Positions 6,199 through 46,775 of a stretch of DNA of 64,000 nucleotides are shown here, in pieces. The stretch lies in the UHGV virus genome UHGV-1558314. One strand, written 5' to 3'. A model generated the notes under the pieces. The model was given only the letters and a program-made list of their open reading frames with translations, ran no database searches and was not told the origin of the DNA. The stretch's first letter is position 1. Every line of letters begins with the position of its first letter. Made by a program: the position numbers and the translations under genes. The stretch comes from a virus.

Positions 6199-6304
6199 AT
6201 TGTGTATAGTTTGCTTTCTTAATTTTTGGATATATACACATGCTCAAACTGCACAAAAAACTTCGCATCAATAACTTGATGCGAAGTGTACTCAATGTAA
6301 TATG

Positions 6305-10635: not shown

Positions 10636-10664
10636 ATTATATATTGATATATTACAACATTTGT
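10636..10664 (-). promoter_or_regulatory. conserved phage promoter motif (ATGTTGTAATAT...TATAAT)
   Basis: Minus-sense AAATGTTGTAATATATCAATATATAATATAAAACCTCTACAACAATG; the -10 TATAAT lies about 20 nt before the ATG. Confidence 0.45.
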
Positions 10665-10710
10665 TGTCAATTTGCACAATTGTTGTTAACAAAATGCATT
10701 ACATTGACAA

Positions 10711-10744
10711 AAAAATAAAGGCTCAGTTTGTATAACTGAGCCTC
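10711..10744 (-). terminator. rho-independent terminator after thyA
   Basis: 10-bp stem AGGCTCAGTT/AACTGAGCCT with 5-nt loop, followed on the minus strand by TTTATTTTTTTG. Confidence 0.55.
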
Positions 10745-10763
10745 TTGAAATGACACGAACTTA

Positions 10764-12509: not shown

Positions 12510-14387
12510 TCAAAAGCCTGCAAAGAAATCAGCATCAGCAGCATCTTGCTGCGATGTTGACTCTTGTTCAATCACAAATCGACTGTGCAACTTTTGATTA
12601 TGTTTTATGTATGGCATAATGCGCCGGATTGATTCATCAATGACAAACGTTTCACACCAGTCATTTGCATGTCGAATGCCTCGACCAACTGACTGTACGA
12701 AGCTTTGATAGCACTTATTGCGATACCAGCTTTCGTGATTTGCAGCTTTTGTTTTGACTACGATATCACCAAGTGATTGCCAAGGTAATTTTGCAACAAT
12801 TTGACATCTACAACGATTGTCTGGTAAGTCAACGCCTTCAGTAATGCTAAAGCCTACAAGTACGTAGTTAGTGCCATCAGCAAGCATTGCAAGTTTGTTT
12901 TGTTTATCTTCAGCATTGACATATGTCAGCATTCTGCGTTTGTGCTTGCTGTTATTGATGATATAGTTTGCAATGTCTCGTGTTGATGTGTGTATGATAC
13001 AGTTGCAGTCATGCGTGTCAAGAATGCTGTCAATCTTCTCAACAAGTCGAGGCATATTTGCCGCTTTATTCTTGTAGCTCAATGACAACGCAGGCCTGCA
13101 CAGTACAATGGGGGATTTGCTAAAATCCCAATCAGGCTCCATGTAGAATGCTACATAGTTTTTGATGCCATTGAGTGCAGCAAATGTGTCGATGTCACCA
13201 ATTGTCGCTGACATCCACAATTGTGCGTGTGTAGCATCACTGTGATGCACCAGCGTATTTGCAAGAAGCTCATCATTGACACATTTGAATTGCAAGCTGT
13301 TTGTTGCAGCGTCAAGTACTACAAGCATGTCACCAGGTGATTGTTCAGTTGCATCAAGCATTGTAATGATTGAATATGACAACGTATCACAGCTGGCAAC
13401 AAAGCGAATGAACGCTTTCTCAAATTGACCAAGTATTTTACCAGAATCCTGAAGTTCACTTAGCTTGTCATATGCAGTATGCAAAAAGTCTACAAGTTCT
13501 GACAACTGCTGTGCAAGCACTCTTGCTTCTGCTCGCATTGTTGCAATGTCATATTGTGTTGTTGCAAGCTTAATGATTGCTTTGACTTGTGCAAACACAT
13601 TATTGCGAAGTTCTACATATTTATTCTGATTTTCAAGAGTCATGATACCTGCAATCAGTGACTCGGCCTTTGTGCAATTCTGAATGAATCGAGGACCAAT
13701 TGACGTGTAAAGAAAGCCTGACAAAATGTCATCAATCTTATGGCACTCATCGAATATTGTCAATTCACGAGGCCCAAATAAGTTTTTGACGCAATTGACT
13801 TGTATCAACCAGTATGCATAATTGAGCACAGTGCAATTTGCTGCTGCAGCCTTTTGACGAGTCTGCAAATATGCGCATTTAGGTCCGCATGGCAATGCAA
13901 GAGCTTTCTTTGATGACAGCCCGTCTTGCTGGCATTTGCCCATACTGAATGGCAGCCCATTGACATGACAAATGTAGTTGTCTCGACCTTTGAGCATTAC
14001 ACAACTTCTGAATGCTGAAGTAGTTGTATCTGCTTTAGCATTGTTGTCGTACAAATATTGCTGAATGAACTTGTCGTACTGGTCTTGCAGCAGTTTATCA
14101 GAAGTCAGTACATACGACTTAAAGAACGTTGCACAAAACATTGCAACCACAGATTTCCCCGTTCCAGTCGCGCCCTGCAACACAACATTTTGCCCATTTG
14201 CAATGCAACGAATGATGTCAATAATTAGTTGACGTTGAGTTGCGTCAAAACGTGCTTGGTCCCATTTGCATGTCTTTGATTGTGCAAGATATGCTGAGAA
14301 TTTGTCGATATGTGCTACAATGAGCTCATCAAGCTCTTGCTGAGACTGTTCTTCTGTCTTATGTTCTGTTGGTGTTAGTCTACCCAT
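12510..14387 (-). CDS. XPD/DinG-like (Rad3 family) SF2 DNA helicase with Fe-S Cys cluster
   Basis: Walker A VLQGATGTGKSVV, DECH box IFDECHKIDD, motif VI VQSVGRGIRHANDW, and four Cys between motifs I and II (ICH, KCQ, PCGPKC). Confidence 0.7.
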   Translation of the reverse strand: MGRLTPTEHKTEEQSQQELDELIVAHIDKFSAYLAQSKTCKWDQARFDATQRQLIIDIIRCIANGQNVVLQGATGTGKSVVAMFCATFFKSYVLTSDKLLQDQYDKFIQQYLYDNNAKADTTTSAFRSCVMLKGRDNYICHVNGLPFSMGKCQQDGLSSKKALALPCGPKCAYLQTRQKAAAANCTVLNYAYWLIQVNCVKNLFGPRELTIFDECHKIDDILSGFLYTSIGPRFIQNCTKAESLIAGIMTLENQNKYVELRNNVFAQVKAIIKLATTQYDIATMRAEARVLAQQLSELVDFLHTAYDKLSELQDSGKILGQFEKAFIRFVASCDTLSYSIITMLDATEQSPGDMLVVLDAATNSLQFKCVNDELLANTLVHHSDATHAQLWMSATIGDIDTFAALNGIKNYVAFYMEPDWDFSKSPIVLCRPALSLSYKNKAANMPRLVEKIDSILDTHDCNCIIHTSTRDIANYIINNSKHKRRMLTYVNAEDKQNKLAMLADGTNYVLVGFSITEGVDLPDNRCRCQIVAKLPWQSLGDIVVKTKAANHESWYRNKCYQSFVQSVGRGIRHANDWCETFVIDESIRRIMPYIKHNQKLHSRFVIEQESTSQQDAADADFFAGF

Positions 14388-14404
14388 TCTAAATGAGATT
14401 TAGA
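14388..14404 (-). promoter_or_regulatory. palindromic leader element TCTAAATGAGATTTAGA abutting the helicase start codon
   Basis: Perfect 7-bp inverted repeat with 3-nt spacer at positions -1 to -17 from the ATG; identical element at 21342-21358. Confidence 0.5.
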
Positions 14405-14626
14405 TTATGTTCGAATATATGAGAACATATATTATTTGTAAAGATATAATACTACAAACAGCACACATTTGCACTTTGACATAACTGATTGAGTATCAAT
14501 CAATTATGAGTTTATAAAAGTTTTTCAAAAGTAGGGTGTTGTTGTTTGAGTAGAGTGTTGTTAATGCTGTCAGCTGTCTTGTTAGCATTATCGATTGCTT
14601 GCAAACTATCAGCCGTCATAGAACAT

Positions 14627-14666
14627 CACAAAAGCAAGCAGACTACAATTGCAGTCTGCTTGCTTT
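14627..14666 (-). terminator. rho-independent terminator (13-bp stem) followed by TTTTGTG
   Basis: AAGCAAGCAGACT / AGTCTGCTTGCTT stem; near-identical palindrome at 30977-31004. Confidence 0.55.
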
Positions 14667-14687
14667 GACATATGTGTAGCATATAGC

Positions 14688-15044
14688 TTATTTGCACATA
14701 AACAATGCAGCAAACCAATTCACTGGCTTGTCAATAAGCTGCTTCCACATAGTCCAATTGTACATGCCATGTGCAAACATTGTAAGAGCAAACAGCAGCA
14801 TACACATTGATACAAGCCAATCAGCAAATGGCATATTGCCCCATCGAATGTACTCGAAAATGCCAACTTTAACAAGCTGAGCAAACAAAATGAGCATTAC
14901 AGCCATTGCAAGTCGCGTCCAGACTACATATTGCTGAGTCTTATCTACAAACTTTGCAATCAATGCTGGCACAAAGTACATAATGTATGCAAACAGCAGC
15001 AAGCAAAAGCCTGCATACAGCAGATTAGAAATAAAAGCTCCCAT
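14688..15044 (-). CDS. integral membrane protein (3-4 TM)
   Basis: ORF track; strongly hydrophobic segments (FCLLLFAYIMYFVPALIA, AMAVMLILFAQLV, LVSMCMLLFALTMF). Confidence 0.45.
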   Translation of the reverse strand: MGAFISNLLYAGFCLLLFAYIMYFVPALIAKFVDKTQQYVVWTRLAMAVMLILFAQLVKVGIFEYIRWGNMPFADWLVSMCMLLFALTMFAHGMYNWTMWKQLIDKPVNWFAALFMCK

Positions 15045-15047
15045 ATT

Positions 15048-15929
15048 CTATCGTTTGAATTTGATGAAGTGTTCAGCATCGAGGCCCTCAAATACATACG
15101 GGTCAAGAGTTTCCCAGAAGTTTGAGTATGTCGTTGTCTTTGCAATGCTTGTTTGCTTTGACAAGTTCATATTTGGGTAGCCAAGCATTGCATAGTGTCG
15201 CTCATATATGTGCATTGACGTCGCATTATGCACATATGCGCCAAGCTTAAGACCAAGTTCATTTGCGACAAGTTCTTGCAACAAAGTGAATGCAAACTGG
15301 TCGTTGCAAAAGCCCCAAATGACATCATTGCTTCGCATGTATGTTGTCAAGTACAGCTTATCACCACGAACATTGAAAACAAGATTCAATGTGCATGGCA
15401 TGTCTTTGCCAGTGTAGTTTGCATATTGCGGCTCATAAATGCTAATAACTGCTCGTCTTGTGCATTCATGATTTCGCAAACGTTCAATGACATCTGCAAT
15501 CTGCTTGTGCCAAATTGCGCCATACTGTGAATTGACATTGACACCATCGTCGCTGAATTGCTTCCAACGAGGCAAATAACGTTCAATGCATTCAACTGCA
15601 GGATTGGCTGTCATGTACCACGCAAATTCTGCAGCAGCATTGAGCTTTTTCCATGGTCGTACGTCAATCTTGATTTGCCGCTGTGAAGGGTCCTGAATAA
15701 CTACAGACACATTCAGCAATTCTTTTGTTCGAGTCACTGTTTGTGCATTGTTGCCCTTTGATTCTACAAACTCACCTCTACAATGAAGTTCATACAAAAT
15801 TGAGCGAAATGCTTCTGTTGCAGTGTTTTCAATGATTGTCGTCTGTTGATAACATAAATTTGACGACAATGCTTCAGCATCATTGTACTTTATGCTGTCA
15901 TTGTCATAAGGTGAATTTTTTGTGTGCAT
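15048..15929 (-). CDS. deoxycytidylate 5-hydroxymethylase (T4 gp42-like, ThyA fold)
   Basis: Catalytic Cys in DMPCTLNLVF; YMRSNDVIWGFCNDQFAF closely resembles gp42 NMRSNDVVFGFRNDYAW, with Asp at the position equivalent to ThyA Asn177 / gp42 Asp179. Confidence 0.7.
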   Translation of the reverse strand: MHTKNSPYDNDSIKYNDAEALSSNLCYQQTTIIENTATEAFRSILYELHCRGEFVESKGNNAQTVTRTKELLNVSVVIQDPSQRQIKIDVRPWKKLNAAAEFAWYMTANPAVECIERYLPRWKQFSDDGVNVNSQYGAIWHKQIADVIERLRNHECTRRAVISIYEPQYANYTGKDMPCTLNLVFNVRGDKLYLTTYMRSNDVIWGFCNDQFAFTLLQELVANELGLKLGAYVHNATSMHIYERHYAMLGYPNMNLSKQTSIAKTTTYSNFWETLDPYVFEGLDAEHFIKFKR

Positions 15930-15953
15930 ATTTTGGGATGTTTGTTTTTGTTA

Positions 15954-17048
15954 TCATACAACGACGGTATCTCGTTTGCAATCTGTTCTGTCGAATATCG
16001 AGCAACAATATGATGCAGATTGCTCTTTGATTGCAATAGCTTCGTCATTGTCAAGTGATGAAATACCATCTATGTATGCTTTTGTATTGCCAGCGATGTC
16101 ATCATTTGTTAGCAATGCTGCACGACGTTCAGTACCAAAGAAGCCAAAGCACAATTGACGCTGCAATGCTTCACGAGAAATCTTGTCATCAAACTCGGAT
16201 TTCATGTGTTGCATAAATTCGACAATATCATCAATGTCGCATTGAGTAAAGTCAATGTACAATTTATGCATGTACTTGAATCGTTTGTAGTCTGTTGCAA
16301 GAATTTCTGGGTGCACAATGAACAACGTCTTTTTGCTGTCTATTGGATTTGCAATGACTGACGCTTGAACATAATCAACAAGCACGCCAGATTCACGAAG
16401 TTGCTCAACTGTTTTGCCAAATATATGCCCAAACGTGTCATCAAACCACTTCAAGTATACTTCGTTGTCTTCATCTTTTGATGCGCCAACAATGTAAATC
16501 TCATTGACTCCAAGCGCTTTAAGACGAGTGTCAGATAGCATCGTGTTCAATTGATGCTGCACATACAGCATTGGGCTGCTATGCAAAACTGTTTTGACAA
16601 TCTCACAAGCAATGTCCATATATGCATAGTCAAGCTTTGCAGATTTTGACACATACACTGCACGTTGCTGCAATGGCTCAATTGCTGAGCATGTGGTCAC
16701 AAAGTTGCCAACACATTCTGCTACTGCAATGTCATGCAAGTCATCTGCAATGTACACAATACTTGACAAGTCATCAAATGTTTGAACAAGTTGCTGAAGC
16801 TTTGTTTTGTAATTGCAGAGCATCAATGACTTGATGTTGCAATTGCCAAGCATTGTCTTGATGAGTCGTTGACCTGCTTCAGTGCTGTCACCAGAAATGA
16901 CATGCACATCGCAGTCAAACCAGTTCAACATGTCGATTGCATGCCGAACGCCATATTGCATTTGTTTTGCGAACTTGCCAGATTCATTGAACAGCATTTC
17001 ACCTGACATAATGCCGTCAAAGTCACATACGATTTGAAGTCTGTCCAT
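15954..17048 (-). CDS. HAD-superfamily phosphatase domain protein with uncharacterised C-terminal domain
   Basis: N-terminal IVCDFDGIM matches the HAD motif I (D-x-D-G). Confidence 0.5.
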   Translation of the reverse strand: MDRLQIVCDFDGIMSGEMLFNESGKFAKQMQYGVRHAIDMLNWFDCDVHVISGDSTEAGQRLIKTMLGNCNIKSLMLCNYKTKLQQLVQTFDDLSSIVYIADDLHDIAVAECVGNFVTTCSAIEPLQQRAVYVSKSAKLDYAYMDIACEIVKTVLHSSPMLYVQHQLNTMLSDTRLKALGVNEIYIVGASKDEDNEVYLKWFDDTFGHIFGKTVEQLRESGVLVDYVQASVIANPIDSKKTLFIVHPEILATDYKRFKYMHKLYIDFTQCDIDDIVEFMQHMKSEFDDKISREALQRQLCFGFFGTERRAALLTNDDIAGNTKAYIDGISSLDNDEAIAIKEQSASYCCSIFDRTDCKRDTVVV

Positions 17049-17052
17049 GTTG

Positions 17053-17358
17053 CTACAATTTTGAAGTTAAGTCAATTCGAATTTTGTCTGCGTTGCTTTG
17101 GTCAACAAATCTGTCATCAAAGAAACATTCAACTACGACAAGCTTCTTTGAATTCACAAATTCGATTAGCGATTTTTGCATTGCATCAAGTTGCTTCATG
17201 CATTTACAAAAGCTGCTGTATGACATGATTTGCTTTGGTAACATATCAAATGCGTCTGCAATTCGCTGATGAGCAATCTTTTTTGATGTTGCAATAATGA
17301 CATCTGCTTTGTTGTCATTTGCATGATTGCCAAATATCGCAATATGGTAAACTTTCAT
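17053..17358 (-). CDS. hypothetical small protein
   Basis: ORF 17053..17385 trimmed to internal Met MKVYHIAIFG. Confidence 0.35.
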   Translation of the reverse strand: MKVYHIAIFGNHANDNKADVIIATSKKIAHQRIADAFDMLPKQIMSYSSFCKCMKQLDAMQKSLIEFVNSKKLVVVECFFDDRFVDQSNADKIRIDLTSKL

Positions 17359-17412
17359 TGTATGAGTGATTTTGCTGTTATACATTTATGTTATATATGC
17401 ACATTGTGCCAG

Positions 17413-20400
17413 TTAACAAATTGATGACGTGCCATCAGTATTTGCTACAACTGTCAATGCACTATCAAACTCATCTTGTTGCAATACATGGTCAACTATG
17501 AGTGTTTTGCGAATTGCAGAAAGCTTGGTAAGCAACTGCATCAACACTTGCTGATAATTGATATTGTTGACATCATGCTCAGCGCCAACAATCTGCCCAT
17601 TGCTAAGCTTGCCACTGATTTCGTCAATGAGCAAGATGTTGCCCACTTTGTTTAAGCGTTGAGTCAAAATGAGATGCACGATTGCAAGACCTGCGAAAGT
17701 TCCTTCCATGCCAGACATTTGACTTACACTTCGAATTGACTTCGAGCCCATCAAGTCAATCATCTTCAACACATTGTTGTCATTGATGTCAAAGAACACT
17801 CGGTAGTTCAATGAATCCAGCAAATCATTGAGCTGTGCATTCAGTGATGTTGCAATTGCTGCAAAGACATATGAAACTAAGCCTCGTTTGCTTGTGCACT
17901 GCTTATATGCATTGTACACCAAGTTTGCAATGTTCCACTTTTTCGAAGCTTGCAAATCTTTCTTGAGAGCTTCAATTCGCACATTGTTTGCTGATAAGTC
18001 TGCTTGCATTGTTGCAATTTCTGCATTGATGCTTAGCAGTTTTGAGTTCGCTTCAGTTTCATGCTGCTTAGCATCATCAATGTCGACTTGCAATGCAGCA
18101 TTTGTTGTAATATGCTGCTGAGTTTGCTGTGCATGTTCAAGTGCAAATGCTGCAGCAGTCTTATCAATCTCAAGTTGTTTAAGCGCAGACTCATATGTCG
18201 CTTTCTTATCATACTCTGCTTGAGCAATTTCAAGTTCAGCATTTATTGCAGCCAGTTCTGATTCTACTGTAGATTTTGATTGCAATACATCTTGCTTTGC
18301 TTGTTCAGCTTTACGTTTGATGTCTGCAAGTTGATTTGTGATATCTGCAATTTGCATTTTGACTGCTTCGACTTCAAGCAATGTTGCTGCAGTAGCCATT
18401 GGTTGTGCAATGAATGCATCTAAGTCTCTTTGCGCATTGACTACAGTTCTCTGCAAATCATTGAGCTTTTCTGCATGCATGTCATATGCTGCTTTGTGTG
18501 CTGGATTCAGTGCAGCAATTATTGCATTTGAATCTGTAACATCTATGATTGCTGCTTGCAGTTGCTCAATTTCATACTTCAAATTGCCAATTTTGACAAC
18601 ATTCTCATTGAATTGCTCTGTCTTTTGCGCACATTCTTGACGCAACTTAGCAAGCTCAGTTGACAACCACAGCTTGTATGCTTGTCCTGTGCCAGATGTC
18701 AAGTCATTTGTACATACAGGGCATTTGTCGTTTTCAAGTTGCTTTTGCTTGTCTATAACATTGTCGATGTTTGTTTTTGCAGCAGATATTTCTGTTCTAA
18801 GTGCATTTTGAACAGTGTTGATGTCTTCAATTTGCTTTTGCAAAGCATCTATTTTTGCCCGAGTGTTTGCATTGTACGACTTGCCAAGATTTATCAGCAC
18901 AGAATCAATGTGCTGCTTTGCTGCATCATATGCAAGCTTTGATTCATCAAGCTTTGTTCTGTACAATGACTCTGCATGCGCAACTTCTTTCTGCACTTTT
19001 GCAGATAGCTCATTCTGTTTTGTAAGCAGCTCAGCATATGTATTGTGCAGCTGTGAGCCAGATGCTATGACATTTGTGTATGCTGTATTAGCTTCATTGT
19101 CAATATTAGTGAGTTGCTGCTCAATCTGTGCTTTTGCTGTTTGCAACTTAGACATATCTTGCAATGCAAGTGCAGCAATGTCAAGCTCAACTTTGTGAAT
19201 CTTTGCAATGATGCCATCGATATTTGCTGTTGCATCTTCTATAGTTAAGATGTCTGCAGGAATTTGATGTAGTTTCTTTGAGAGCTCTTCTACTTTTGCA
19301 CGAGCTTTTGTAAGCTTCGCGGACCACTCTTTTTGATTATCTTGTCGTAACTGCAAAGAGTAATTGAGTTCATTGCAAGTTGTATTGAGAGACTCAAGTT
19401 CTGCTTTTATTGCAACATCAGTCAATGCGGGCTTACTAAGGCCATCAAACAATGCAGCCTTTGCAGCATCATTAGAATTGCCAAGCTGTACAAATGTATT
19501 GATGCCAAGAGTATCAAGTAGCCAGTCATTCAATGAATTTGAGTCCATTGCAATGATTTGGTCAAGTAGTGTCTGATTGATACAAACATATCGCGACAAT
19601 TCCCAGATAGAGCCAAAGATTGCATATAGCGTGTCTTTGATTTCATGCTGCGGCACTACGTAGTCATCTGACAATCTTACAAGCTGAACAGTCTCATTGA
19701 CTGCTGACACGTTATCTCGCCATGAGCCATCTGCATTTATTCGAGAACCTCGTTTGAATTTGCGTTCAAGTGTTCGAATCAATTTGTAGTGAACATTTTG
19801 ACCTGCTACTACATGCACAAAGACACAAGAAGCTTCAAGCTTATCATATGACTCATTGTCAATCAATTTGTCATTGAAGTATGTCAAAGCGTTCTGCTTT
19901 GTTGCTGCAGAAGACTGTTCAGCGTCAATAAAGCCAGTCAGCAGCCATTTGATAAGTCTGAAGATTGTAGTCTTGCCATTGCCATTGTTGCCTCTAACTT
20001 GTGTAAGCTGTGCAAGATTGTCAAAGCTGACATCAACATCTTTCAATGCCATGAACTGATTTGCTTTAACATTTTGAATGACATATTTTGCAACTTCAGT
20101 GTCAAAAGACAATTTATCAATTTGTTCATCAATCAATGACTTGAACATGTCAACAAACTGCTGAGCATCTTCAGTAGCAACTATGGCATTGCGTTCAATG
20201 TATGCATTGACCCAGTCAAGTGCAGCGTCTTTAAGCCATTCAGCAGTTTGAACCTTTTGCAGCAAATTGTCGCCATTTGCGTCTACAGCATTGATTGAAT
20301 CAATGACAGCAGAATCATACAGAATGTCAATTGCAGCAACAACATATGAACTTACAAGATTCTGTGCAATGCGCTCAACAATACCAGACAGTTCGGGCTT

Positions 20401-21339
20401 TGTGACCTTTGACTTGATTTTGATTTTATTGATGCGGCCAGGGTTGATGAGTGCAATCTTGTCTGTTTTGACATCATTATCAATTGTGATTGTATGATAA
20501 TGCACAAGCTGCTCAAGTGGATGCCACTCTACCACAATTCGCTTGTTGTCAATATCGATGTCAAGCAAGTTGTAGCCATGTTCTGCAGTACCATGCTGTA
20601 TTGCAGTGTCATTCAACAAATAGTCGCCTTCACCAAAATCTCTGACAATTGGCGAGCCGCAATATGTTAATGTCTTATCACCAGCAACCCATATTGCATG
20701 CTTATGAATGTCACCCATTGCAACAAAGTTGCTATTAAATTGCATTGCATCTATACGACTGTCATTGTCACCACGAACAATACAATCATCAAAGTTGACA
20801 CAATTCTTTACAGGGTCATGGAACAGCTCAATGACACACATTGATGACAATGCTGCAATCTGCGATTCATCAAGTGATGCCCAAGGCGAATATGTGCCAC
20901 CAGACCACTTCTCATTTTGAGCCCATACTGCAGCAGCAAAACCAGGTGCAAGCAGTTCAACTCTTGAACTGTTGATATACTTGATTCGCTTGTCATCAAT
21001 TGCAGTTACAAGCTTGTCAATGCTATCTGTCCACTGCATTTGTGAACCATCACCAGCATCAAATGTGTTATCACGTTGCTTCAAATCATGATTGCCAGCA
21101 GTAATGACAATTTGAAGCTTGTCATTGACTTCAAGCATGCCTTTGAGCAGCTTAACAAACAGCGACTCTTCAAGTGAATTGCTATTCCAATGCTCAAACA
21201 CGTCGCCGACAATGAATACAAACTCAACTGACTTTGCTTTGTCAATTAGTTGTTTGTTGATGTGCTCATATTCTACGAAACGTCGTAAATGACCTTGTCG
21301 AACATTATATTGAATGTCTGCTATGTGAAGTGCTTTCAT
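17413..21339 (-). CDS. fused Mre11/SbcD nuclease - Rad50/SbcC ATPase (1308 aa)
   Basis: N-terminal phosphoesterase motifs VFIVGDVFEHW, VITAGNHDL, GDIHKH; Walker A GNNGNGKTTIFRLIKWLL; coiled-coil with zinc hook DKCPVCTNDL; signature SGMEGTFAGLAIV; Walker B LLIDEISGKLS. One uninterrupted ORF. Confidence 0.75.
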   Translation of the reverse strand: MKALHIADIQYNVRQGHLRRFVEYEHINKQLIDKAKSVEFVFIVGDVFEHWNSNSLEESLFVKLLKGMLEVNDKLQIVITAGNHDLKQRDNTFDAGDGSQMQWTDSIDKLVTAIDDKRIKYINSSRVELLAPGFAAAVWAQNEKWSGGTYSPWASLDESQIAALSSMCVIELFHDPVKNCVNFDDCIVRGDNDSRIDAMQFNSNFVAMGDIHKHAIWVAGDKTLTYCGSPIVRDFGEGDYLLNDTAIQHGTAEHGYNLLDIDIDNKRIVVEWHPLEQLVHYHTITIDNDVKTDKIALINPGRINKIKIKSKVTKPELSGIVERIAQNLVSSYVVAAIDILYDSAVIDSINAVDANGDNLLQKVQTAEWLKDAALDWVNAYIERNAIVATEDAQQFVDMFKSLIDEQIDKLSFDTEVAKYVIQNVKANQFMALKDVDVSFDNLAQLTQVRGNNGNGKTTIFRLIKWLLTGFIDAEQSSAATKQNALTYFNDKLIDNESYDKLEASCVFVHVVAGQNVHYKLIRTLERKFKRGSRINADGSWRDNVSAVNETVQLVRLSDDYVVPQHEIKDTLYAIFGSIWELSRYVCINQTLLDQIIAMDSNSLNDWLLDTLGINTFVQLGNSNDAAKAALFDGLSKPALTDVAIKAELESLNTTCNELNYSLQLRQDNQKEWSAKLTKARAKVEELSKKLHQIPADILTIEDATANIDGIIAKIHKVELDIAALALQDMSKLQTAKAQIEQQLTNIDNEANTAYTNVIASGSQLHNTYAELLTKQNELSAKVQKEVAHAESLYRTKLDESKLAYDAAKQHIDSVLINLGKSYNANTRAKIDALQKQIEDINTVQNALRTEISAAKTNIDNVIDKQKQLENDKCPVCTNDLTSGTGQAYKLWLSTELAKLRQECAQKTEQFNENVVKIGNLKYEIEQLQAAIIDVTDSNAIIAALNPAHKAAYDMHAEKLNDLQRTVVNAQRDLDAFIAQPMATAATLLEVEAVKMQIADITNQLADIKRKAEQAKQDVLQSKSTVESELAAINAELEIAQAEYDKKATYESALKQLEIDKTAAAFALEHAQQTQQHITTNAALQVDIDDAKQHETEANSKLLSINAEIATMQADLSANNVRIEALKKDLQASKKWNIANLVYNAYKQCTSKRGLVSYVFAAIATSLNAQLNDLLDSLNYRVFFDINDNNVLKMIDLMGSKSIRSVSQMSGMEGTFAGLAIVHLILTQRLNKVGNILLIDEISGKLSNGQIVGAEHDVNNINYQQVLMQLLTKLSAIRKTLIVDHVLQQDEFDSALTVVANTDGTSSIC

Positions 21340-21341
21340 AT

Positions 21342-21358
21342 TCTAAATGAGATTTAGA
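21342..21358 (-). promoter_or_regulatory. palindromic leader element TCTAAATGAGATTTAGA just upstream of the Mre11-Rad50 start codon
   Basis: Same 17-bp palindrome as at 14388-14404, at -3 to -19 from the ATG. Confidence 0.5.
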
Positions 21359-21386
21359 TTATATGTTGATATTGTACAACATGCAA
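21358..21386 (-). promoter_or_regulatory. sigma-70-like promoter TTGCAT-N17-TATAAT with conserved TTGTACAA core
   Basis: Minus-sense TTGCATGTTGTACAATATCAACATATAAT, about 18 nt upstream of the ATG at 21339. Confidence 0.55.
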
Positions 21387-21418
21387 AATGCACTTGCATT
21401 TTGATACAACGTATGTCA

Positions 21419-21766
21419 TTATTTTGCAAGCATTTTGCTGATTGCATCTATCACAGTTTCACTGAGCAAGTAGTAGACAACGCTTATCAGCAATGATATC
21501 AGTACTGCAGCTGTGATAAATTGCAACGCATTCACAATTGCACGCACAAATGTTATCTGTGTGTTGTATGCAAGCACTATGCAGCATAGCACAATAATGA
21601 CACACCAGACTACAATTGCATATGCAGGCATCAATGAATTTGTCCATATGCAGTACAATACAGTAGTTAGCATCAAAAATGCTATTGCTCTGATGACTGA
21701 CACAATGATGTCTATGTAGAGCTTCATTACACGTAAATGAACTCTTGGCTTATGCGGTTTCATCAT
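21419..21766 (-). CDS. small membrane protein
   Basis: ORF 21419..21829 trimmed to internal Met; hydrophobic segments IIVSVIRAIAFLMLTTVLYCIW, AIVVWCVIIVLCCIVLAY, AAVLISLLISVVYYLL. Confidence 0.4.
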   Translation of the reverse strand: MMKPHKPRVHLRVMKLYIDIIVSVIRAIAFLMLTTVLYCIWTNSLMPAYAIVVWCVIIVLCCIVLAYNTQITFVRAIVNALQFITAAVLISLLISVVYYLLSETVIDAISKMLAK

Positions 21767-23001
21767 GACTTTATGTACAATTCTGCAAGTTGTCTGGTGT
21801 ACAATCGTGGATTGTGATATGCTTTCCAATATGCAGTAGACTTTATTGCAGCAAGAATCTCATCATAATGTTTGACTGCTTTTGCTACAACTTCATCAAG
21901 TACATGCAAATCTTCTACACTAACAAGCAGCCATTTTTCTACAATGTCAATGAATTCTTGATTGCAATTAAAGCCATATTTGTAGTTGCAAGTGTCAAGT
22001 ACAAGTGGGATGCAGTCATTTGTCAGTGCTTCAAAAAATCTACGAAGACTGAAACAATTCTCATCATATGATGGAATGCTTAATGTAAACTTGGCAGTCT
22101 TGATGAGTTGCAAATACTCTTCGTATGGAATCAGAGGACCATTGTGCTTCCACTGATTGTTATGTCGTCTTGTTGTGTACTTGAACAAAAACTTTGAACT
22201 GTCAAGCTCACAAAGATGGTCCATGCGTAAAATGTAGTTATAGCGGTCTCTTCTATCAGGCCAACTGTCAGTCATTGCAAACACAAAGTCTCTTTGCTTG
22301 TCACATTTTGCTGACATACCTCTATGCTGACACATGCAGTACCAATATTGCTGCGATGGACTGAACTCGAACTTTGAGTGATGCTCACTGCCATCTTTGC
22401 ATTGTTGAACGTAAATATTGTCAGGCACAAAGTGAAAGTAGAAATGTCGAATTTGCAAGCCGTCAATGTAGTCAAGCTTATGCTGCAATGGGTCCTCACA
22501 GAAATTGTAACACTGAATGCGTTTTGCTGCAGCATACTCAGCAACTATGAATGTGCACACCCATTGCAATGCGATGTCTTCACTCTTCAAAAAGTCAACA
22601 AGTGGCTCATTTGGATGCGCTTTGCATTCATTGAACATTTTGTACCACTTGCATTGCTCCATGTCATACTTGGAGACTGTATTGCCATTAAAAAATGACA
22701 CAGTATCAATTTTGAATGCCTCAAGTTGTTTATGCACAATGTCGATTGCTTGTGCATATGTGACAGTCTCATCAGACATTATTTGTGCAAACTTGATTGG
22801 ATGCGCATGCAAATTTGCAATTGTGTCTGCTGACATTTTGCGCTGTGTATGATAATCGACATACAAAAACTGACACTTGTCTGTAAGCAATTCAAGCATT
22901 GCTACAGATTTCCATCGAATTGCTTGAAAGAAATTGAAGTGCGCAGTTTGAAAAATGAGATGCGTAGGCTTGTCAGAATGAGTCAAAGTTTGCATGGACA
23001 A
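21763..23001 (-). CDS. putative DNA glycosyltransferase, GT-B-like (paralog A1)
   Basis: Paralogous to 26026..27582 (shared EDPLQHKL[D/N]YID, SPSQQYWY, IPSYDENCFSLRRFFEALTNDCIPLV). The C-terminal S-L-R-x-F-x-E...P-L-V patch resembles the catalytic region of phage beta-glucosyltransferase. Family assignment is from memory. Confidence 0.45.
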   Translation of the reverse strand: MSMQTLTHSDKPTHLIFQTAHFNFFQAIRWKSVAMLELLTDKCQFLYVDYHTQRKMSADTIANLHAHPIKFAQIMSDETVTYAQAIDIVHKQLEAFKIDTVSFFNGNTVSKYDMEQCKWYKMFNECKAHPNEPLVDFLKSEDIALQWVCTFIVAEYAAAKRIQCYNFCEDPLQHKLDYIDGLQIRHFYFHFVPDNIYVQQCKDGSEHHSKFEFSPSQQYWYCMCQHRGMSAKCDKQRDFVFAMTDSWPDRRDRYNYILRMDHLCELDSSKFLFKYTTRRHNNQWKHNGPLIPYEEYLQLIKTAKFTLSIPSYDENCFSLRRFFEALTNDCIPLVLDTCNYKYGFNCNQEFIDIVEKWLLVSVEDLHVLDEVVAKAVKHYDEILAAIKSTAYWKAYHNPRLYTRQLAELYIKS

Positions 23002-25124: not shown

Positions 25125-25153
25125 GAGGATGGATTTTATATGTTGATATTGTA
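25125..25153 (-). promoter_or_regulatory. sigma-70-like promoter TTGCAT-N17-TATAAA (second copy of conserved motif)
   Basis: Minus-sense TTGCATGTTGTACAATATCAACATATAAA; spacer identical to the copy at 21358-21386. Confidence 0.5.
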
Positions 25154-25195
25154 CAACATGCAAAATGTATTTGCATTTTGATACAACATATATTG

Positions 25196-28745: not shown

Positions 28746-29442
28746 ATACTTTGCAATTATCTATTACATGTTGATATTGTACTTCATCTATGATGTGATT
28801 TGCAATGACACCATATGAGGCGTCATACATTGGCATCTTCTCATATGACAATGCTGCGTCAAGATTGCATATCACATAATTGCAATGCACAATGTCATCT
28901 ACATTGTCACTAACTGCTACGATATTGACACACTTTGCAAGAAATGCATCATCAAAGTCTACTTGATTGCATGCAACCTCATAATCTGCTGCGCTTCTTG
29001 GGTACCAATATAACTCAATGCCAGCACTACTAAGTAGTCGCAAGCCATCTATGTGATGATACAAGTCAACAAAATGCACTTGCTTAACGCCTGCTTGCAA
29101 AATAAGCTTTGCGCAATCAATGCATGGACTGTATGTTACATACAGCACTGCGTCATTTGCGGTCGCATTGCCATATTTGCACAGCTTCATCAATGCGTTT
29201 GATTCTGCATGCAAAACTTCTTTGTTGGTTTTGATACCTGCCGATGTTGCATGCTCACAACAATTTGACATGCCAGTTGGCATGCCATTGTAGCCATCTG
29301 AAATTATGCAACCATTTTTTACAAGCAATGCGCCAACTTTTGCTCGCTGAGCATATGAATTTAATGACCAAAGCTCAGCCATTTTAAGATATATGAGATT
29401 TCGTTGAAACTGCTTTGTTTCAGACCAAGTTAGCCATTTCAT
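28717..29442 (-). CDS. dCMP deaminase (zinc-dependent cytidine/deoxycytidylate deaminase family)
   Basis: Zinc-ligand motifs LHAESNAL (H-A-E) and YSPCIDCAKL (P-C-x-x-C). Confidence 0.8.
   Translation of the reverse strand: MKWLTWSETKQFQRNLIYLKMAELWSLNSYAQRAKVGALLVKNGCIISDGYNGMPTGMSNCCEHATSAGIKTNKEVLHAESNALMKLCKYGNATANDAVLYVTYSPCIDCAKLILQAGVKQVHFVDLYHHIDGLRLLSSAGIELYWYPRSAADYEVACNQVDFDDAFLAKCVNIVAVSDNVDDIVHCNYVICNLDAALSYEKMPMYDASYGVIANHIIDEVQYQHVIDNCKVYEQTIHFEI
28763..28791 (-). promoter_or_regulatory. partial copy of conserved promoter motif inside the 3' end of the dCMP deaminase gene
   Basis: Minus-sense GAAGTACAATATCAACATGTAAT, about 18 nt upstream of the B2 start codon at 28745. Confidence 0.35.
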
Positions 29443-29446
29443 ATGC

Positions 29447-30829
29447 TTACAGTGAGTTTATAATTTTGATAAAGTCTGTTACAATGTTTGTATGCAACTC
29501 AATGAGATAGTTGTCTTGTAATGTCATAAGCTCATCAAGTTCATCTACACTTAATGACTTGAAGACTTCTGCACAATGCTTGGCATTTTTGATGTGTGCG
29601 ACTTTATGATACTTGATAAAGTCAGGACACACACAATTATTCACGTACATACAAGGCAAGCCTGCAAGCATTGATTCAGTTGCTCTGAATGTAATTGCGT
29701 TGCATTGTTTCATATTCTCTTCACACACAATGTATGCAAAGTCGAACTGCGACAAGTATGTTAACATGTCAAAATACTTGATTGTGCCATTATAGACATG
29801 TGGCATATCAATGTCGATATTGCCGACAACATGAGTTTCGATGTCTGCGCAGCCAAGCAAATCAATGACTTCTTGTTTGCGTTCAGCGCACATGTCATTC
29901 CAAGCAACCATCGGCATTGCAGTAGTCAACTTGCCTGATTGCAATTTTGCTAAACGTTTTTCGTTATGTGATGCATACAATGGAATGCCTTCAAGTCTTG
30001 CATGCTGAATTGTGTTGACATTGATTTCTGTCAGCATTGACAACGCATTATGCATGTTCTGTGCTTGTGTGACAACTGTCATCTTTTTGCAGCGCAATCT
30101 AAAGTTTGCAATGTGTGGCACGAGTCGTAAATCATACCACAGCCATACAATGTCACCCTTCCATGACTCAATAAGCTGCTTGTGCTGTTTGTAGATGACT
30201 GACTGACTCATCAAGTCATTCATTGCTGAGCATACAATGTACAACACACCATATTTGTCAATTGAGTGCTGCACATAGTCAACTGAGCAGCATAGCACAT
30301 CTTTGTCGAAAAGTTTTGGGTCATGCACTTCTGCATCATCTACAATAAGATGTGCCTTGTATTGATGCTGCTTTGTTGCATCAATGATGCGAGCAATTGC
30401 AAAGCATTCTCTACTTTGAATGTCTGTCTTATCTTGTCGTGGTTGGTCTTGTGTTCGTACAGGATATGCAGGCTTAAGTATTACAGGCACAAAATGTGTT
30501 TTTGCAGAATATGGTGCATCTACTGCAGCAAACTCCGCGTTGCATCGTTGTGAATGCAGATGTCGTGCATATGATTGCAACAATTCATGAATCATTGCAA
30601 TGTACTCTTTCAATTCAAACAGCTCGTGTACAGTTGCGTTTGTTATGTCGACTACGACAGTTTGTCGCACAATTGGATACACACAAATAACGTAATCATT
30701 ATATGATAGTGGAATGCCTATAAATGCTGAGCATCTGTTTCGAAGCCATGCAATGCAATCAGCGTCAAACACAATTTCATATTGCTGCTGCAAAGCATTT
30801 AATTGCGCTATAATCAAATCATTGTGCAT
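29447..30829 (-). CDS. putative glycosyltransferase-like protein (family C)
   Basis: C-terminal ITFRATESMLAGLPCMYV resembles the GT-B acceptor/donor motif (R-x-x-E...G-x-P). Confidence 0.4.
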   Translation of the reverse strand: MHNDLIIAQLNALQQQYEIVFDADCIAWLRNRCSAFIGIPLSYNDYVICVYPIVRQTVVVDITNATVHELFELKEYIAMIHELLQSYARHLHSQRCNAEFAAVDAPYSAKTHFVPVILKPAYPVRTQDQPRQDKTDIQSRECFAIARIIDATKQHQYKAHLIVDDAEVHDPKLFDKDVLCCSVDYVQHSIDKYGVLYIVCSAMNDLMSQSVIYKQHKQLIESWKGDIVWLWYDLRLVPHIANFRLRCKKMTVVTQAQNMHNALSMLTEINVNTIQHARLEGIPLYASHNEKRLAKLQSGKLTTAMPMVAWNDMCAERKQEVIDLLGCADIETHVVGNIDIDMPHVYNGTIKYFDMLTYLSQFDFAYIVCEENMKQCNAITFRATESMLAGLPCMYVNNCVCPDFIKYHKVAHIKNAKHCAEVFKSLSVDELDELMTLQDNYLIELHTNIVTDFIKIINSL

Positions 30830-30845: not shown

Positions 30846-30874
30846 CATATATGAATATATTGTACAACATGTAT
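30846..30874 (-). promoter_or_regulatory. conserved promoter motif (ATACAT-N17-TATATG variant)
   Basis: Minus-sense ATACATGTTGTACAATATATTCATATATG, 16 nt upstream of the ATG at 30829. Confidence 0.45.
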
Positions 30875-30970
30875 TGAGCTTTTGCACAACATATGTTGTT
30901 AAAATATCATCATTGTACAACATAAAGCGCATATTTGCACGTTGTGTTGCTAAAAATATTGTTATTGTAC

Positions 30971-31004
30971 ACAAAACAAGCAGACTGCAATTGCAGTCTG
31001 CTTG
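30971..31004 (-). terminator. rho-independent terminator (perfect 28-bp palindrome) followed by TTTTGT
   Basis: CAAGCAGACTGCAATTGCAGTCTGCTTG; stem near-identical to the hairpin at 14632-14666. Confidence 0.55.
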
Positions 31005-31051: not shown

Positions 31052-31597
31052 TTAGTTTGCGTCCGCTTCCTGCGATTCAGCTTCAGCAGACTTTTCAGCA
31101 AGTTCTGCTTGCTTGCGTTTGTCAATTTCCTGCAAGCAAGTATCAAGTGCAGTAGCATTTTCACGATACTGCTCGTCGAACTTCTGTACTTCTGCTGCAG
31201 GTGCCTCAAGCAGATTGTTGAGCGAATCCAGTGCTGCAGCAACCTGAGCACCCTTGAACTTCGTTGTAGATACTGCACGAACAATGTACTTGAACTCGAA
31301 GATGCCCATGGTGCTTCGTCCTTTTGCAGCGTCAGTAGCCCATGCAGCAAATGCGACAACATCACGCATAAGTCGCATATCAAACTCAAGCTGCGGCAAA
31401 ACAAGTTCGCACACATTACGTGCAACAGACTTGAGCAATTCGCCATCAGTCGTGACAATCATCTGCATTGACTGCGATTTGTCTTCGAGTTCTTTTCGAG
31501 CTTCACTGAGCAACTTTTCAAGTGCTTTCAGCTGCTCCATTGTCATGTCTTTGAGTTCAGTTGCAGGCTTTGCTGCAACAGCATTTTTCTTTGCCAT
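31052..31597 (-). CDS. hypothetical protein (181 aa), predicted helical with acidic C-terminus
   Basis: ORF track; charged, Ala/Lys/Glu-rich sequence. Confidence 0.45.
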   Translation of the reverse strand: MAKKNAVAAKPATELKDMTMEQLKALEKLLSEARKELEDKSQSMQMIVTTDGELLKSVARNVCELVLPQLEFDMRLMRDVVAFAAWATDAAKGRSTMGIFEFKYIVRAVSTTKFKGAQVAAALDSLNNLLEAPAAEVQKFDEQYRENATALDTCLQEIDKRKQAELAEKSAEAESQEADAN

Positions 31598-36065: not shown

Positions 36066-36105
36066 AATGAAAAGAGGCTCAGACAAACAATGTCTGTCTG
36101 AGCCT
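36066..36105 (-). terminator. rho-independent terminator after the SSB gene
   Basis: 12-bp stem GAGGCTCAGACA / TGTCTGAGCCTC, followed on the minus strand by TTTTCATTT. Confidence 0.55.
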
Positions 36106-36131
36106 CGAGCATCTTTGATGCGCTTGTACTG

Positions 36132-43514: not shown

Positions 43515-43587
43515 TGTTGTAGAGGTTTGTATACTATATTGATATATGATAATTGTACTACAAATTTATCAAATTTGCACTGATTTA

Positions 43588-44891: not shown

Positions 44892-44975
44892 CTGACAGAT
44901 GCATCACATATAAGCAATGCTCCACTGAGAAATCTCAGTGGAGCATTTTTTGTGCTGTTTGGCAATTTTAGACAT

Positions 44976-46734: not shown

Positions 46735-46775
46735 GCACAAAAAAGAAGAGCATCGGTTAAAAACCGATGCTCTTT
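46735..46775 (-). terminator. rho-independent terminator after BACON-like gene
   Basis: Stem GAAGAGCATCGGTT / AACCGATGCTCTTT, followed on the minus strand by TTTTTTGTG. Confidence 0.55.

What the first reader, a model, noticed from the sequence alone, without database searches (positions are those of the whole stretch)
14627..14666. Two near-identical palindromic hairpins 16 kb apart within a family of hairpin plus TTTTGTG terminators
The stems at 14632-14666 (AAGCAAGCAGACT...AGTCTGCTTGCTT) and 30977-31004 (CAAGCAGACTGCAATTGCAGTCTGCTTG) share the core GCAAGCAGACT...AGTCTGCTTGC. The terminators at 10711-10744, 36066-36105, 46735-46775 and 59719-59752 have different stems but the same trailing TTTT(T)GTG. 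Duplication of one stem suggests a mobile or protein-recognised element rather than independently evolved terminators.
Basis: seen in the sequence. Interest (0 to 1): 0.4.

Follow-up and report, generated by a model that had tools for sequence, protein, structure and literature searches.

The report
Copied transcription terminator hairpin in phage
Two almost identical 30-36 base hairpins, 16 kb apart in an uncultured T4-like phage genome, look like ordinary transcription stop signals where one is a copy of the other; nothing suggests a mobile element or a protein docking site.

Summary
The two hairpins are real: 14631-14666 (H1) and 30977-31004 (H2). All flanking genes lie on the minus strand. 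Read on that strand, the two share 35 of 37 bases: GCAAGCAGACTGCAATTG[T/C]AGTCTGCTTG[C/-]TTTTGTG. Each starts 22-47 nt after a stop codon, folds at -26 to -28 kcal/mol, carries its T-run on the transcribed strand only, and lies upstream of a repeated sigma-70-like promoter motif. I read them as Rho-independent terminators in terminator-promoter intergenic modules.

The identity is far beyond chance, so one is a copy of the other. Both copies occur in several independent assemblies of about 95% identical strains. A relative with 63-73% identical proteins has an unrelated stem at the H1 site and a similar stem at the H2 site, which suggests copying from H2 to H1.

The element is not a host repeat, and the 174 kb relative holds only two copies. 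Strain variants change the sequence but keep the pairing, which argues for structure rather than sequence recognition.

It partly reflects a promoter box that abuts the T-run.

Closest known: the PeSL promoter/stem-loop cassettes of T4-type phages. Transcript ends were not measured.

The parts
14631..14666 (-). Hairpin H1. The stem has 15-16 pairs, including one G.U next to the AAUU loop. It starts 22 nt after the stop codon of ORF 14688-15044.
   Evidence: fold -28 kcal/mol, z -5.7; identical in L001/L003, L011 and L016, centre inverted in L006
14627..14633 (-). T-run plus GTG tail of H1 (TTTTGTG on the minus strand). Its first Ts can pair with the AAA at the stem base.
30977..31004 (-). Hairpin H2. 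The stem has 12 Watson-Crick pairs plus a terminal G.U (30976/31005), with an AAUU loop. It starts 47 nt after the stop codon of ORF 31052-31597.
   Evidence: fold -26.4 kcal/mol, z -5.3; identical in L002 and L015; A-T to G-C compensatory change in L014
30970..30976 (-). T-run plus GTG tail of H2 (TTTTGTG). It reads TTTTATG in the IMG/VR relative.
14688..15044 (-). Upstream gene ended by H1: a 118-aa predicted protein of unknown function.
   Evidence: 68% identical orthologue in relative B; no PHROG family
31052..31597 (-). Upstream gene ended by H2: a 181-aa protein of unknown function.
   Evidence: 64% identical orthologue in relative B; not similar to the 118-aa protein
14446..14474 (-). 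Promoter-like motif GTGCAAAT-N11-GTAGTATTAT ahead of the helicase gene 12510-14387. It lies about 158 nt downstream of H1.
30912..30940 (-). Promoter-like motif GTGCAAAT-N11-GTTGTACAAT, 37 nt downstream of H2.
30859..30887 (-). Second tandem promoter-like motif, GTGCAAAA-N11-GTTGTACAAT, ahead of gene 29447-30829.
14512..14619 (-). Probable 35-aa micro-gene. It starts 11 nt after the H1 stem ends (4 nt after the TTTTGTG tail), with no promoter motif in between.
   Evidence: most strain differences fall at third codon positions, and L006 has an in-frame 15-nt deletion

Best explanation
H1 and H2 are Rho-independent (intrinsic) transcription terminators or attenuators for minus-strand transcripts. 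The genome belongs to an uncultured T4-like phage and encodes a gp32-like protein, an SbcC-like protein, helicases, thymidylate synthase and dCMP deaminase.

Each hairpin closes a transcription unit just after a stop codon. Each lies upstream of a conserved sigma-70-like promoter, GTGCAA-N17-TACAAT, that restarts transcription of the next gene.

Their near-identity comes from DNA copying within the phage genome, most likely from the H2 site to the H1 site. I infer the route to be recombination or replication template switching between regulatory intergenic cassettes. It is not convergent evolution, a transposable element or a shared binding protein.

The GTG after the T-run is best read as the first bases of the promoter's -35-like box, GTGCAwAT. 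That box abuts the T-run in relatives, and the GTG was carried along with the copy.

Shown here: anatomy, orientation, copy number, conservation, non-chance identity and promoter motif enrichment. Inferred: that transcripts end there, the direction of copying and its mechanism, and the origin of the GTG.
For: Terminator anatomy:
- Both hairpins are stable: -28 and -26.4 kcal/mol, z about -5.5.
- Both start 22-47 nt downstream of stop codons of minus-strand ORFs. Both carry TTTT directly 3' on the minus strand. H2 has no T-run on the other strand.
- Eight other hairpin plus T-run sites in the window have the same geometry with different stems.
- The motif TGCAAR-N15-17-GTANWAT occurs 8 times, always on the minus strand and intergenic, against 0.38 expected. 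Copies follow both H1 and H2 (family D1/D9).

Copying:
- The two copies are 35/37 identical, and a shared 15-nt arm word arose in 0 of 5000 shuffles.
- Similarity stops at the element edges, and the flanking proteins are unrelated.
- Both copies are present in independent assemblies of strains about 95% identical to the window: L001-L003, L006, L011, L014-L016.

Direction of copying (relative B, 63-73% protein identity):
- It has a terminator at each orthologous site.
- At the H1 site the stem is unrelated: CACCCTTGAC...GTCAAGGGTG.
- At the H2 site the stem is AAGAGACTAC...GTAGTCTCTT, followed by TTTTTGTGCATAT-N11-GTTGTACTAT.
- The interval between thymidylate synthase and the helicase, which holds H1, differs in gene content among four lineages.

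Structure rather than sequence:
- L014 carries AGACT/AGTCT changed to AGGCT/AGCCT.
- L006 carries the centre reverse-complemented.

Known precedents:
- PeSL promoter/stem-loop cassettes mediate such shuffling in T4-type phages (PMC2839356, PMC4122927).
- Template switching between inverted-repeat arms maintains hairpins and inverts their spacers (PMC8794818, PMC8604942).
Against: - No transcript data exist, so termination is unproven.
- The T-run is short (4 T, then GTG).
- A probable 35-aa gene starts 11 nt after the H1 stem with no recognisable promoter. H1 may therefore be a leaky attenuator or an RNA-stability or processing hairpin rather than a full stop.
- With only four distinct sequence variants, covariation is not statistically significant: one compensatory pair, with 219 of 500 shuffles scoring as high.
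- The stem similarity between the window and relative B at the H2 site is modest, so the direction of copying is tentative.
- The -35-box explanation of GTG fits relative B and terminator 46744-46776 well. Neither H1 nor H2 has a full box after its tail (H1 GTGATGTT; H2 GTGTACAAT), and neither do several other tails.
- I saw only 64 kb of this genome, plus pattern scans of the 174 kb relative. Diverged extra copies could exist.
Confidence: 0.75

Rival explanations
1. The palindrome is a sequence-specific binding site for a phage or host protein, on DNA or RNA. Examples would be a regulator, an antiterminator or a structure-specific nuclease that co-regulates the two transcription units. Under this reading the sequence, not only the fold, is kept identical.
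For: - Both copies are perfectly conserved across strains whose flanks vary. The 20 nt upstream of H1 are heavily substituted in L001 and L006.
- The palindrome is perfect, with a CAATTG centre.
- Each site keeps its private differences across strains.
Against: - Other terminators with unrelated stems are equally invariant among the strains (10716-10746 and 36074-36106).
- L014 changed both half-sites symmetrically, and L006 inverted the centre.
- The sites lie 37-158 nt upstream of the promoter motifs, not over them.
- Relative B has a different stem at the H1 site.
- Half-site words are not enriched elsewhere in the window.
Confidence: 0.08
2. The hairpin is a small mobile palindromic element, REP/MITE-like or otherwise self-propagating, that has inserted at two intergenic sites.
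For: - The same roughly 37-nt unit sits at two unrelated loci with sharp boundaries.
- Two more terminator pairs share arm words.
- The H1 site lies in a plastic interval.
Against: - The 174 kb relative holds only two copies.
- No multi-copy occurrence exists in any bacterial or archaeal species genome or metagenome contig scanned.
- I saw no target-site duplication and no terminal repeats other than the stem itself.
- Relative B already has terminators at both sites, so this is a replacement rather than an insertion.
Confidence: 0.04
3. The hairpins act mainly after transcription, as 3'-end stabilisers or RNase processing sites within polycistronic transcripts, rather than as terminators.
For: - The probable micro-gene starts 11 nt after the H1 stem with no promoter.
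- The T-run is short.
- From general knowledge of T4-type phages, not tested here: stem-loops are widely used in mRNA processing and stability.
Against: - The T-run is strand-specific and directly abuts the stem.
- A promoter follows every such hairpin. This is the classic terminator-promoter arrangement, and PeSL stem-loops of this kind were shown to terminate (PMC2839356).
Confidence: 0.1
4. The two stems are independently evolved terminators that happen to resemble each other.
For: The same 22-nt palindrome core occurs as singleton, terminator-like hairpins in unrelated genomes: Lactobacillus MAGs and Aurantibacter.
Against: The two are 35/37 identical, tail included, within one genome. A shared 15-nt arm word arose in 0 of 5000 shuffles.
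Confidence: 0.01

Closest known systems
PeSL (promoter-early stem-loop) regulatory cassettes of T4-type phages (Arbiol et al. 2010, PMC2839356; Comeau et al. 2014, PMC4122927)
   Same: - Both are small intergenic modules that combine a terminator/attenuator stem-loop with a strong sigma-70-like promoter.
- Both are repeated through the early and replication gene regions of a T4-like genome.
- Both are associated with gene-content plasticity, seen here in the interval between thymidylate synthase and the helicase that holds H1.
- Both are proposed to be exchanged by recombination.
   Different: - In PeSLs the stem-loop usually overlaps or sits inside the promoter and often has polyG/polyC arms. 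Here the hairpin lies 37-158 nt upstream of the promoter and has a classical T-run.
- In PeSLs the repeated, conserved part is mainly the promoter, in about 50 copies. Here the striking identity is in the hairpin, in two copies.
- I could not show recombination products or mini-circles.
- The H2 site shows no gene-content variation.
Canonical bacterial Rho-independent terminators
   Same: A stable stem of 12-16 pairs, a 4-nt loop, a 3' T-run on the transcribed strand, and a position just after a stop codon.
   Different: The T-run is short (4 T) and is followed by a recurrent GTG. Two copies are near-identical, which is unusual for terminators of unrelated genes.
Template-switch (quasipalindrome) mutation, which maintains hairpins and inverts inverted-repeat spacers (PMC8794818, PMC8604942)
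   Same: - Strain variants show exactly the expected footprints.
- Simultaneous changes on both arms occur in H2 of L014.
- Loops or centres are reverse-complemented in H1 of L006, in terminator 6258-6289 of L011/L012, and in hairpin 14480-14508 of L001.
   Different: Those studies concern changes within one hairpin. Copying a whole hairpin to a site 16 kb away is an extension that I infer and have not shown.
REP/BIME and other bacterial extragenic palindromic repeats
   Same: A short intergenic palindrome found at more than one locus, often downstream of genes.
   Different: REPs occur in tens to hundreds of copies, belong to the host chromosome and are linked to RAYT transposases. This element has two copies and matches no host genome.

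Membership tests
Rho-independent (intrinsic) terminator | Stable G+C-containing stem-loop with a short loop | tested here: met
   H1 folds at -28 kcal/mol with 15-16 pairs. H2 folds at -26.4 kcal/mol with 12-13 pairs. Both have a 4-nt loop, and 0 of 200 shuffles fold as well.
Rho-independent (intrinsic) terminator | U-rich tract immediately 3' of the stem on the transcribed strand | tested here: met
   The tails are TTTTGTGATGTT (H1) and TTTTGTGTACAAT (H2) on the minus strand. The run is short at 4 T, and H2 has none on the plus strand.
Rho-independent (intrinsic) terminator | Lies downstream of a gene in the same orientation, in an intergenic region | tested here: met
   H1 starts 22 nt and H2 47 nt after the stop codons of minus-strand ORFs 14688-15044 and 31052-31597.
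Rho-independent (intrinsic) terminator | Transcripts actually end in the U-tract | not testable with these tools
   No expression data are available. This needs Term-seq or in vitro transcription.
Rho-independent (intrinsic) terminator | Pairing is maintained through sequence change (covariation) | tested here: inconclusive
   There is one compensatory pair (A-U to G-C in L014) and three G.U changes. Only 4 distinct sequences exist, and 219 of 500 shuffles score as high.
PeSL cassette (T4-type phages) | A stem-loop combined with a sigma-70-like early promoter in one intergenic module | tested here: met
   Promoter-like motifs lie 37 nt (H2) and about 158 nt (H1) downstream of the hairpins. The arrangement is looser than in most described PeSL classes, where the two parts overlap.
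PeSL cassette (T4-type phages) | Many repeated copies of a conserved motif across the genome | tested here: inconclusive
   The promoter motif has 8 strict copies in 64 kb against 0.38 expected. The hairpin sequence itself has only two copies.
PeSL cassette (T4-type phages) | Sits at boundaries of insertions, deletions or replacements between related phages | tested here: inconclusive
   Met at the H1 site: between thymidylate synthase and the helicase there are 118+35 aa ORFs here, 118+75 aa in relative B, none in L017 and 148 aa in L018. Not met at the H2 site, which is syntenic in relative B.
PeSL cassette (T4-type phages) | The host genome is a T4-type phage | tested here: inconclusive
   T4-type replication and repair genes: gp32 (PF08804, 6.8e-16), an SbcC-like protein and helicases; distant relatives carry a T4 gp13 domain. 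The best helicase matches are only 29% identical, to jumbo phages, and no structural genes were examined.
PeSL cassette (T4-type phages) | Recombination between cassettes (mini-circles, shuffled modules) is demonstrated | not testable with these tools
   This needs PCR or long reads on phage DNA.
REP/MITE-like mobile palindromic element | Many dispersed copies in the genome and/or the host | tested here: not met
   The 174 kb relative has two copies. Genome and metagenome scans found only unrelated singletons.
REP/MITE-like mobile palindromic element | Target-site duplication or an associated transposase (RAYT) | not tested
   No duplication is visible at the element edges by eye. I did not screen the ORFs for transposases.
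Palindromic operator or protein-binding site | The sequence, not just the symmetry, is conserved among relatives | tested here: not met
   L014 has a symmetric double change and L006 an inverted centre. Relative B has an unrelated stem at the H1 site.
Palindromic operator or protein-binding site | Overlaps or adjoins the promoter it controls, and a cognate binding protein exists | tested here: not met
   The hairpins lie 37-158 nt upstream of the promoter motifs and directly after stop codons. Whether a binding protein exists cannot be tested here.

The most novel reading that the evidence does not exclude
The terminator hairpins of this phage lineage behave as a dynamic, paralogous DNA family. 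Whole hairpins would be copied between distant intergenic sites, and their loops flipped, by replication template switching or recombination at extruded palindromes. H1 and H2 might in addition be held identical because a phage factor recognises this particular stem to co-regulate the two replication-gene units. That would make terminators a substrate of concerted, structure-driven evolution in phages rather than independently drifting signals.
Probability: 0.1. Interest if true: 0.5.

Novelty: new member of a known kind. Interest (0 to 1): 0.25.

Why it matters
The finding helps to annotate transcription units in an uncharacterised group of large T4-like phages. It gives a terminator set and a clear promoter consensus, GTGCAAAT-N11-GTTGTACAAT.

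It also offers a small, clean example of regulatory hairpins being copied and remodelled at the DNA level: copying between sites, compensatory double changes and loop inversions among strains. This fits the PeSL idea that regulatory cassettes are points of genetic exchange in T4-type phages.

It reveals no new kind of element.

Tried and rejected
- **Host-derived or widespread repeat.** I scanned viral, metagenome and genome collections for the palindrome. Apart from close relatives of this phage, the scans found only unrelated singletons. Rejected.
- **Segmental duplication of gene plus terminator.** The upstream proteins are unrelated and similarity ends at the hairpin. Rejected.
- **Known RNA family.** Rfam gave no hit anywhere in the window at gathering thresholds.
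- **Half-site as a dispersed recognition word.** Two extra exact copies of GCAAGCAGACT lie inside genes at 17997 and 27830. Hairpin-derived 11- and 13-mers are not enriched against a 3rd-order Markov model (P = 0.19 and 0.13). Rejected as chance.
- **Strand direction from G.U wobbles.** Both H1/H2 differences are G.U on the minus-strand RNA and A.C on the plus strand, which I first took as directional evidence. L006 carries the opposite arrangement, so I dropped the argument.
- **TTTTGTG as a universal clade or host terminator signature.** Distant relatives have TTTTTATGTC and TATTTTGTATATG, and two window terminators lack GTG. Only partly true.
- **More strain variants.** Scans of viral contigs with conserved flank words returned only the one contig already known.
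- **Automated search for inverted segments between strains.** It was dominated by trivial 2-nt cases and missed two flips that I saw by eye, so it is not usable as a statistic.
- **Match to a cultured phage.** Megablast of 14000-22000 against 50,697 phage records found nothing.

Full report
**Context**

The window has 40.8% G+C, and nearly all long ORFs lie on the minus strand. Genes identified include:
- a DinG/Rad3-type helicase (12510-14387);
- a 1308-aa SbcC-like metallophosphoesterase (17413-21339);
- a second helicase (34456-36051);
- a gp32-like single-strand DNA-binding protein (36132-37265; PF08804, E = 6.8e-16).

Precomputed Pfam marks on the matching genes of close relatives add thymidylate synthase, dCMP deaminase, thioredoxin and an RNase T-like exonuclease.

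The helicase is only about 29% identical to those of the jumbo phages Chryseobacterium MA9V-1, Sphingomonas PAU and Tenacibaculum PTm1. Megablast against 50,697 phage records found nothing. This is the replication and nucleotide-metabolism region of an uncultured large T4-like phage.

**The observation**

Hairpins at 14631-14666 (H1) and 30977-31004 (H2) are present as described. Because the genes are on the minus strand, the hairpins must be read there:
- H1: AAAGCAAGCAGACTGCAATTGTAGTCTGCTTGCTTTTGTG
- H2: AGTGCAAGCAGACTGCAATTGCAGTCTGCTTGTTTTGTG

From GCAAGC through TTTTGTG they differ by one substitution next to the loop and by one C. That is 35 of 37 identical. Similarity ends within 2-3 nt on either side.

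The repeat finder groups them as one family at 94% identity (D18). In 5000 shuffles of the arms of the window's ten terminators, no pair ever shared a 15-nt word. The identity is therefore not chance, and it includes the tail.

TTTTGTG follows 6 of the 10 strong hairpin plus T-run sites: 6258-6289, H1, H2, 46744-46776, 59726-59753 and, on the plus strand, 44916-47.
- 10716-10746 ends in TTTATTTTTTTGTC;
- 36074-36106 ends in TCTTTTCATTTA.

**What the hairpins are**

- Both fold strongly as RNA on the minus strand: -28 and -26.4 kcal/mol, with z-scores of -5.7 and -5.3.
- H1 starts 22 nt after the stop codon of ORF 14688-15044. H2 starts 47 nt after that of ORF 31052-31597.
- Each has its T-run directly 3' on the transcribed strand. 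H2 has none on the other strand.
- Eight other sites in the window share this geometry with unrelated stems.
- Downstream of both hairpins lies a repeated promoter-like motif, GTGCAAAT-N11-GTTGTACAAT. This amounts to GTGCAA, a 17-nt spacer, then TACAAT.
- The pattern TGCAAR-N15-17-GTANWAT occurs 8 times, all on the minus strand and all intergenic, against 0.38 expected (families D1, D8, D9 and D15).
- H2 is followed after 37 nt by two tandem copies of the motif, ahead of gene 29447-30829. H1 is followed after about 158 nt by one copy, ahead of the helicase.

This is the standard terminator-then-promoter arrangement between transcription units. Rfam has no match anywhere in the window.

**Relatives**

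A 174,628-bp IMG/VR contig is 95-96% identical to the window. It contains the exact pattern at only two places, the orthologous ones. Other assemblies of strains about 95% identical to the window cover one site or the other (L006, L011, L014, L015, L016).

Both hairpins are invariant in most of these strains, although the 20 nt upstream of H1 are heavily substituted. Two variants are informative:
- In L014, H2 reads GCAAGCAGGCTGCAATTGCAGCCTGCTTG. This is a double change that turns an A-U pair into G-C.
- In L006, the centre of H1 is reverse-complemented, GACTACAATTGCAGTC instead of GACTGCAATTGTAGTC.

Both variants keep the stem and change the sequence. With only four distinct sequences, the formal covariation count is not significant.

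A more distant relative, 'B' (sample SRR14089581, loci L010 and L013), has 63-73% protein identity in the flanking genes. It carries a terminator at each orthologous site:
- At the H1 site the stem is unrelated: CACCCTTGAC-acattga-GTCAAGGGTG. It is followed by TTTTTTATGTGCAAAT-N11-GTTGTAATAT.
- At the H2 site the stem is AAGAGACTACTA-attt-AGTAGTCTCTT. This resembles H2 (AGACT.C ... G.AGTCT). It is followed by ATTTTTGTGCATAT-N11-GTTGTACTAT.

So the terminator function is conserved at both positions. The H2 stem looks old, and the H1 stem looks like a replacement in the window's lineage.

The interval between thymidylate synthase and the helicase, where H1 lies, also differs in gene content among lineages:
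- this phage: 118 aa plus a 35-aa micro-ORF;
- relative B: 118 aa plus 75 aa;
- L017: nothing;
- L018: 148 aa.

I infer copying from H2 to H1 during remodelling of this plastic spot. The evidence is suggestive, not conclusive.

**The GTG tail**

In relative B, the T-run of both terminators runs straight into the promoter's -35-like box: TTTT(A)TGTGCAAAT and TTTTTGTGCATAT. Terminator 46744-46776 in the window does the same (TTTTTTGTGCATAT-N11-ATATAATATG).

The H2 tail, GTG-TACAAT, looks like relative B's GTG-CATATGCA-TACAAT with 8 nt deleted. The recurring GTG(C) is therefore best explained as the start of an abutting or vestigial promoter box. On that reading, the H1 copy carried it along.

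This fits only some sites. More distant relatives have other tails. I hold this explanation at roughly even odds.

**Not a host repeat, mobile element or operator**

Scans of the metagenome and genome collections for GCAGACTNCAATTGNAGTCTGC found one more strain of this phage (L006) and five unrelated singletons:
- two metagenome contigs;
- two Lactobacillus MAGs;
- Aurantibacter aestuarii.

The three genome hits sit in A/T-run contexts typical of terminators. No genome carries many copies.

The proteins upstream of H1 and H2 are unrelated. Hairpin-derived words are not enriched elsewhere in the window. The hairpins do not overlap the promoter motifs.

**A wider pattern**

- Two other terminator pairs share 9-nt arm words: 10716-10746 with 36074-36106 (GAGGCTCAG), and 44916-44947 with 45830-45883 (CTCCACTGA). 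A third-best shared word of at least 9 nt occurred in 0 of 5000 shuffles. Hairpin copying therefore seems recurrent in this genome.
- Loops flip among close strains. Terminator 6258-6289 has loop GTTA here and TAAC in L011 and L012. The hairpin at 14480-14508 has TAC here and GTA in L001. The third case is H1 in L006.
- Loop or spacer inversion and simultaneous two-arm changes are the known footprints of template switching between inverted-repeat arms (PMC8604942, PMC8794818).
- The arms are shorter than the k-mers assemblers typically use, so I think an assembly artefact is unlikely. I could not check reads.

**Comparison with known systems**

The closest described system is the PeSL cassette of T4-type phages. 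A PeSL is a small intergenic unit that joins a strong sigma-70-like promoter to a terminating stem-loop. PeSLs are repeated about 50 times, concentrated in plastic regions, and implicated in modular shuffling by recombination (PMC2839356; PMC4122927).

The present modules work the same way. They differ in layout (the hairpin is upstream of the promoter and separate from it, with a T-run) and in what is repeated (the promoter many times, each hairpin sequence at most twice). I file H1 and H2 as intrinsic terminators in PeSL-like modules. They are a new member of a known kind, not a new kind of element.

**Caveats**

- There are no transcript data.
- The T-run is short.
- A probably real 35-aa gene begins 11 nt after the H1 stem without its own promoter. 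Most of its strain differences fall at third codon positions, and L006 has an in-frame 15-nt deletion. H1 may therefore be leaky.
- I examined only 64 kb of this genome directly.

Noticed in passing
window, minus strand: 10649-10676, 14446-14473, 21371-21398, 25148-25175, 28776-28804, 30859-30886, 30912-30939, 43552-43579 (looser copies near 26015, 34457, 37397): A conserved promoter-like motif, GTGCAAAT-N11-GTTGTACAAT(ATC), equivalent to GTGCAA-N17-TACAAT. Eight strict matches, all intergenic and all on the coding strand, against 0.38 expected. It is also present in relatives B and L018.
   Followed up: partly
window 6258-6289 vs L011:18101-18130 and L012; window 14480-14508 vs L001; window 14645-14652 vs L006: Hairpin loops or centres are exactly reverse-complemented between strains about 95% identical to the window: GTTA/TAAC, TAC/GTA and GCAATTGT/ACAATTGC. 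These loop-inversion polymorphisms are typical of template switching or arm recombination at palindromes.
   Followed up: partly
window 10716-10746 with 36074-36106; 44916-44947 with 45830-45883: Two further terminator pairs share 9-nt arm words (GAGGCTCAG and CTCCACTGA). A third-best shared word of at least 9 nt occurred in 0 of 5000 arm shuffles.
   Followed up: partly
window 14512-14619 (minus strand): A probable 35-aa micro-gene, MTADSLQAIDNANKTADSINNTLLKQQHPTFEKLL, lies between H1 and the helicase promoter. Strain differences fall mostly at third codon positions. L006 has an in-frame 15-nt deletion, and L001 a 1-nt deletion that alters the C-terminus.
   Followed up: partly
window 36074-36106 and L013:3410-3444: The terminator after the gp32-like gene keeps a 24-nt core, GCTCAGACAGACAT.GTTTGTCTGAGC. 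The relative's gp32 is only 73% identical, and a compensatory G-C to A-T change sits at the stem base. This is unusually deep conservation for a terminator.
   Followed up: no
window 59650-59722 (minus strand): Directly after terminator 59726-59753 there are about 2.5 tandem copies of a 30-nt unit, GTGC(G/A)CAT(A)TTCGAAGAGAC(T/C)TATTCTCAT(A/G)T. A related word, TTCTCATATATTCGAA, lies ahead of the helicase start (about 14405-14425). L011 lacks about 23 nt in that stretch.
   Followed up: no
window 45214-45265 and 45830-45883: Two very long palindromes, with stems of 20 and 23 pairs, lie in the strand-switch region 43.5-46.8 kb. The second has A5/T5 at its base and could terminate in both directions.
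   Followed up: no
window 48167-52495 (minus strand): A 1442-aa ORF contains internal repeats with spacings of about 300-1020 nt (families D2, D4, D6, D7). It also has a weak N-terminal BACON-domain hit, below Pfam's cut-off, which may hint at a Bacteroidota host.
   Followed up: no
L007:7019-7040, L009:6-27, L008:322-343: The same 22-nt palindrome core, GCAGACT.CAATTG.AGTCTGC, occurs once each in two Lactobacillus MAGs and in Aurantibacter aestuarii. There too it is flanked by A/T runs like a terminator. This looks like convergence, not homology.
   Followed up: partly
window 14388-14687 vs L010:9624-10000, L017:9896-10000, L018:9392-10000: The interval between thymidylate synthase and the helicase carries different small ORFs in each lineage: 118+35 aa, 118+75 aa, none, and 148 aa. 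It is a small hyperplastic spot bounded by terminator and promoter motifs.
   Followed up: partly
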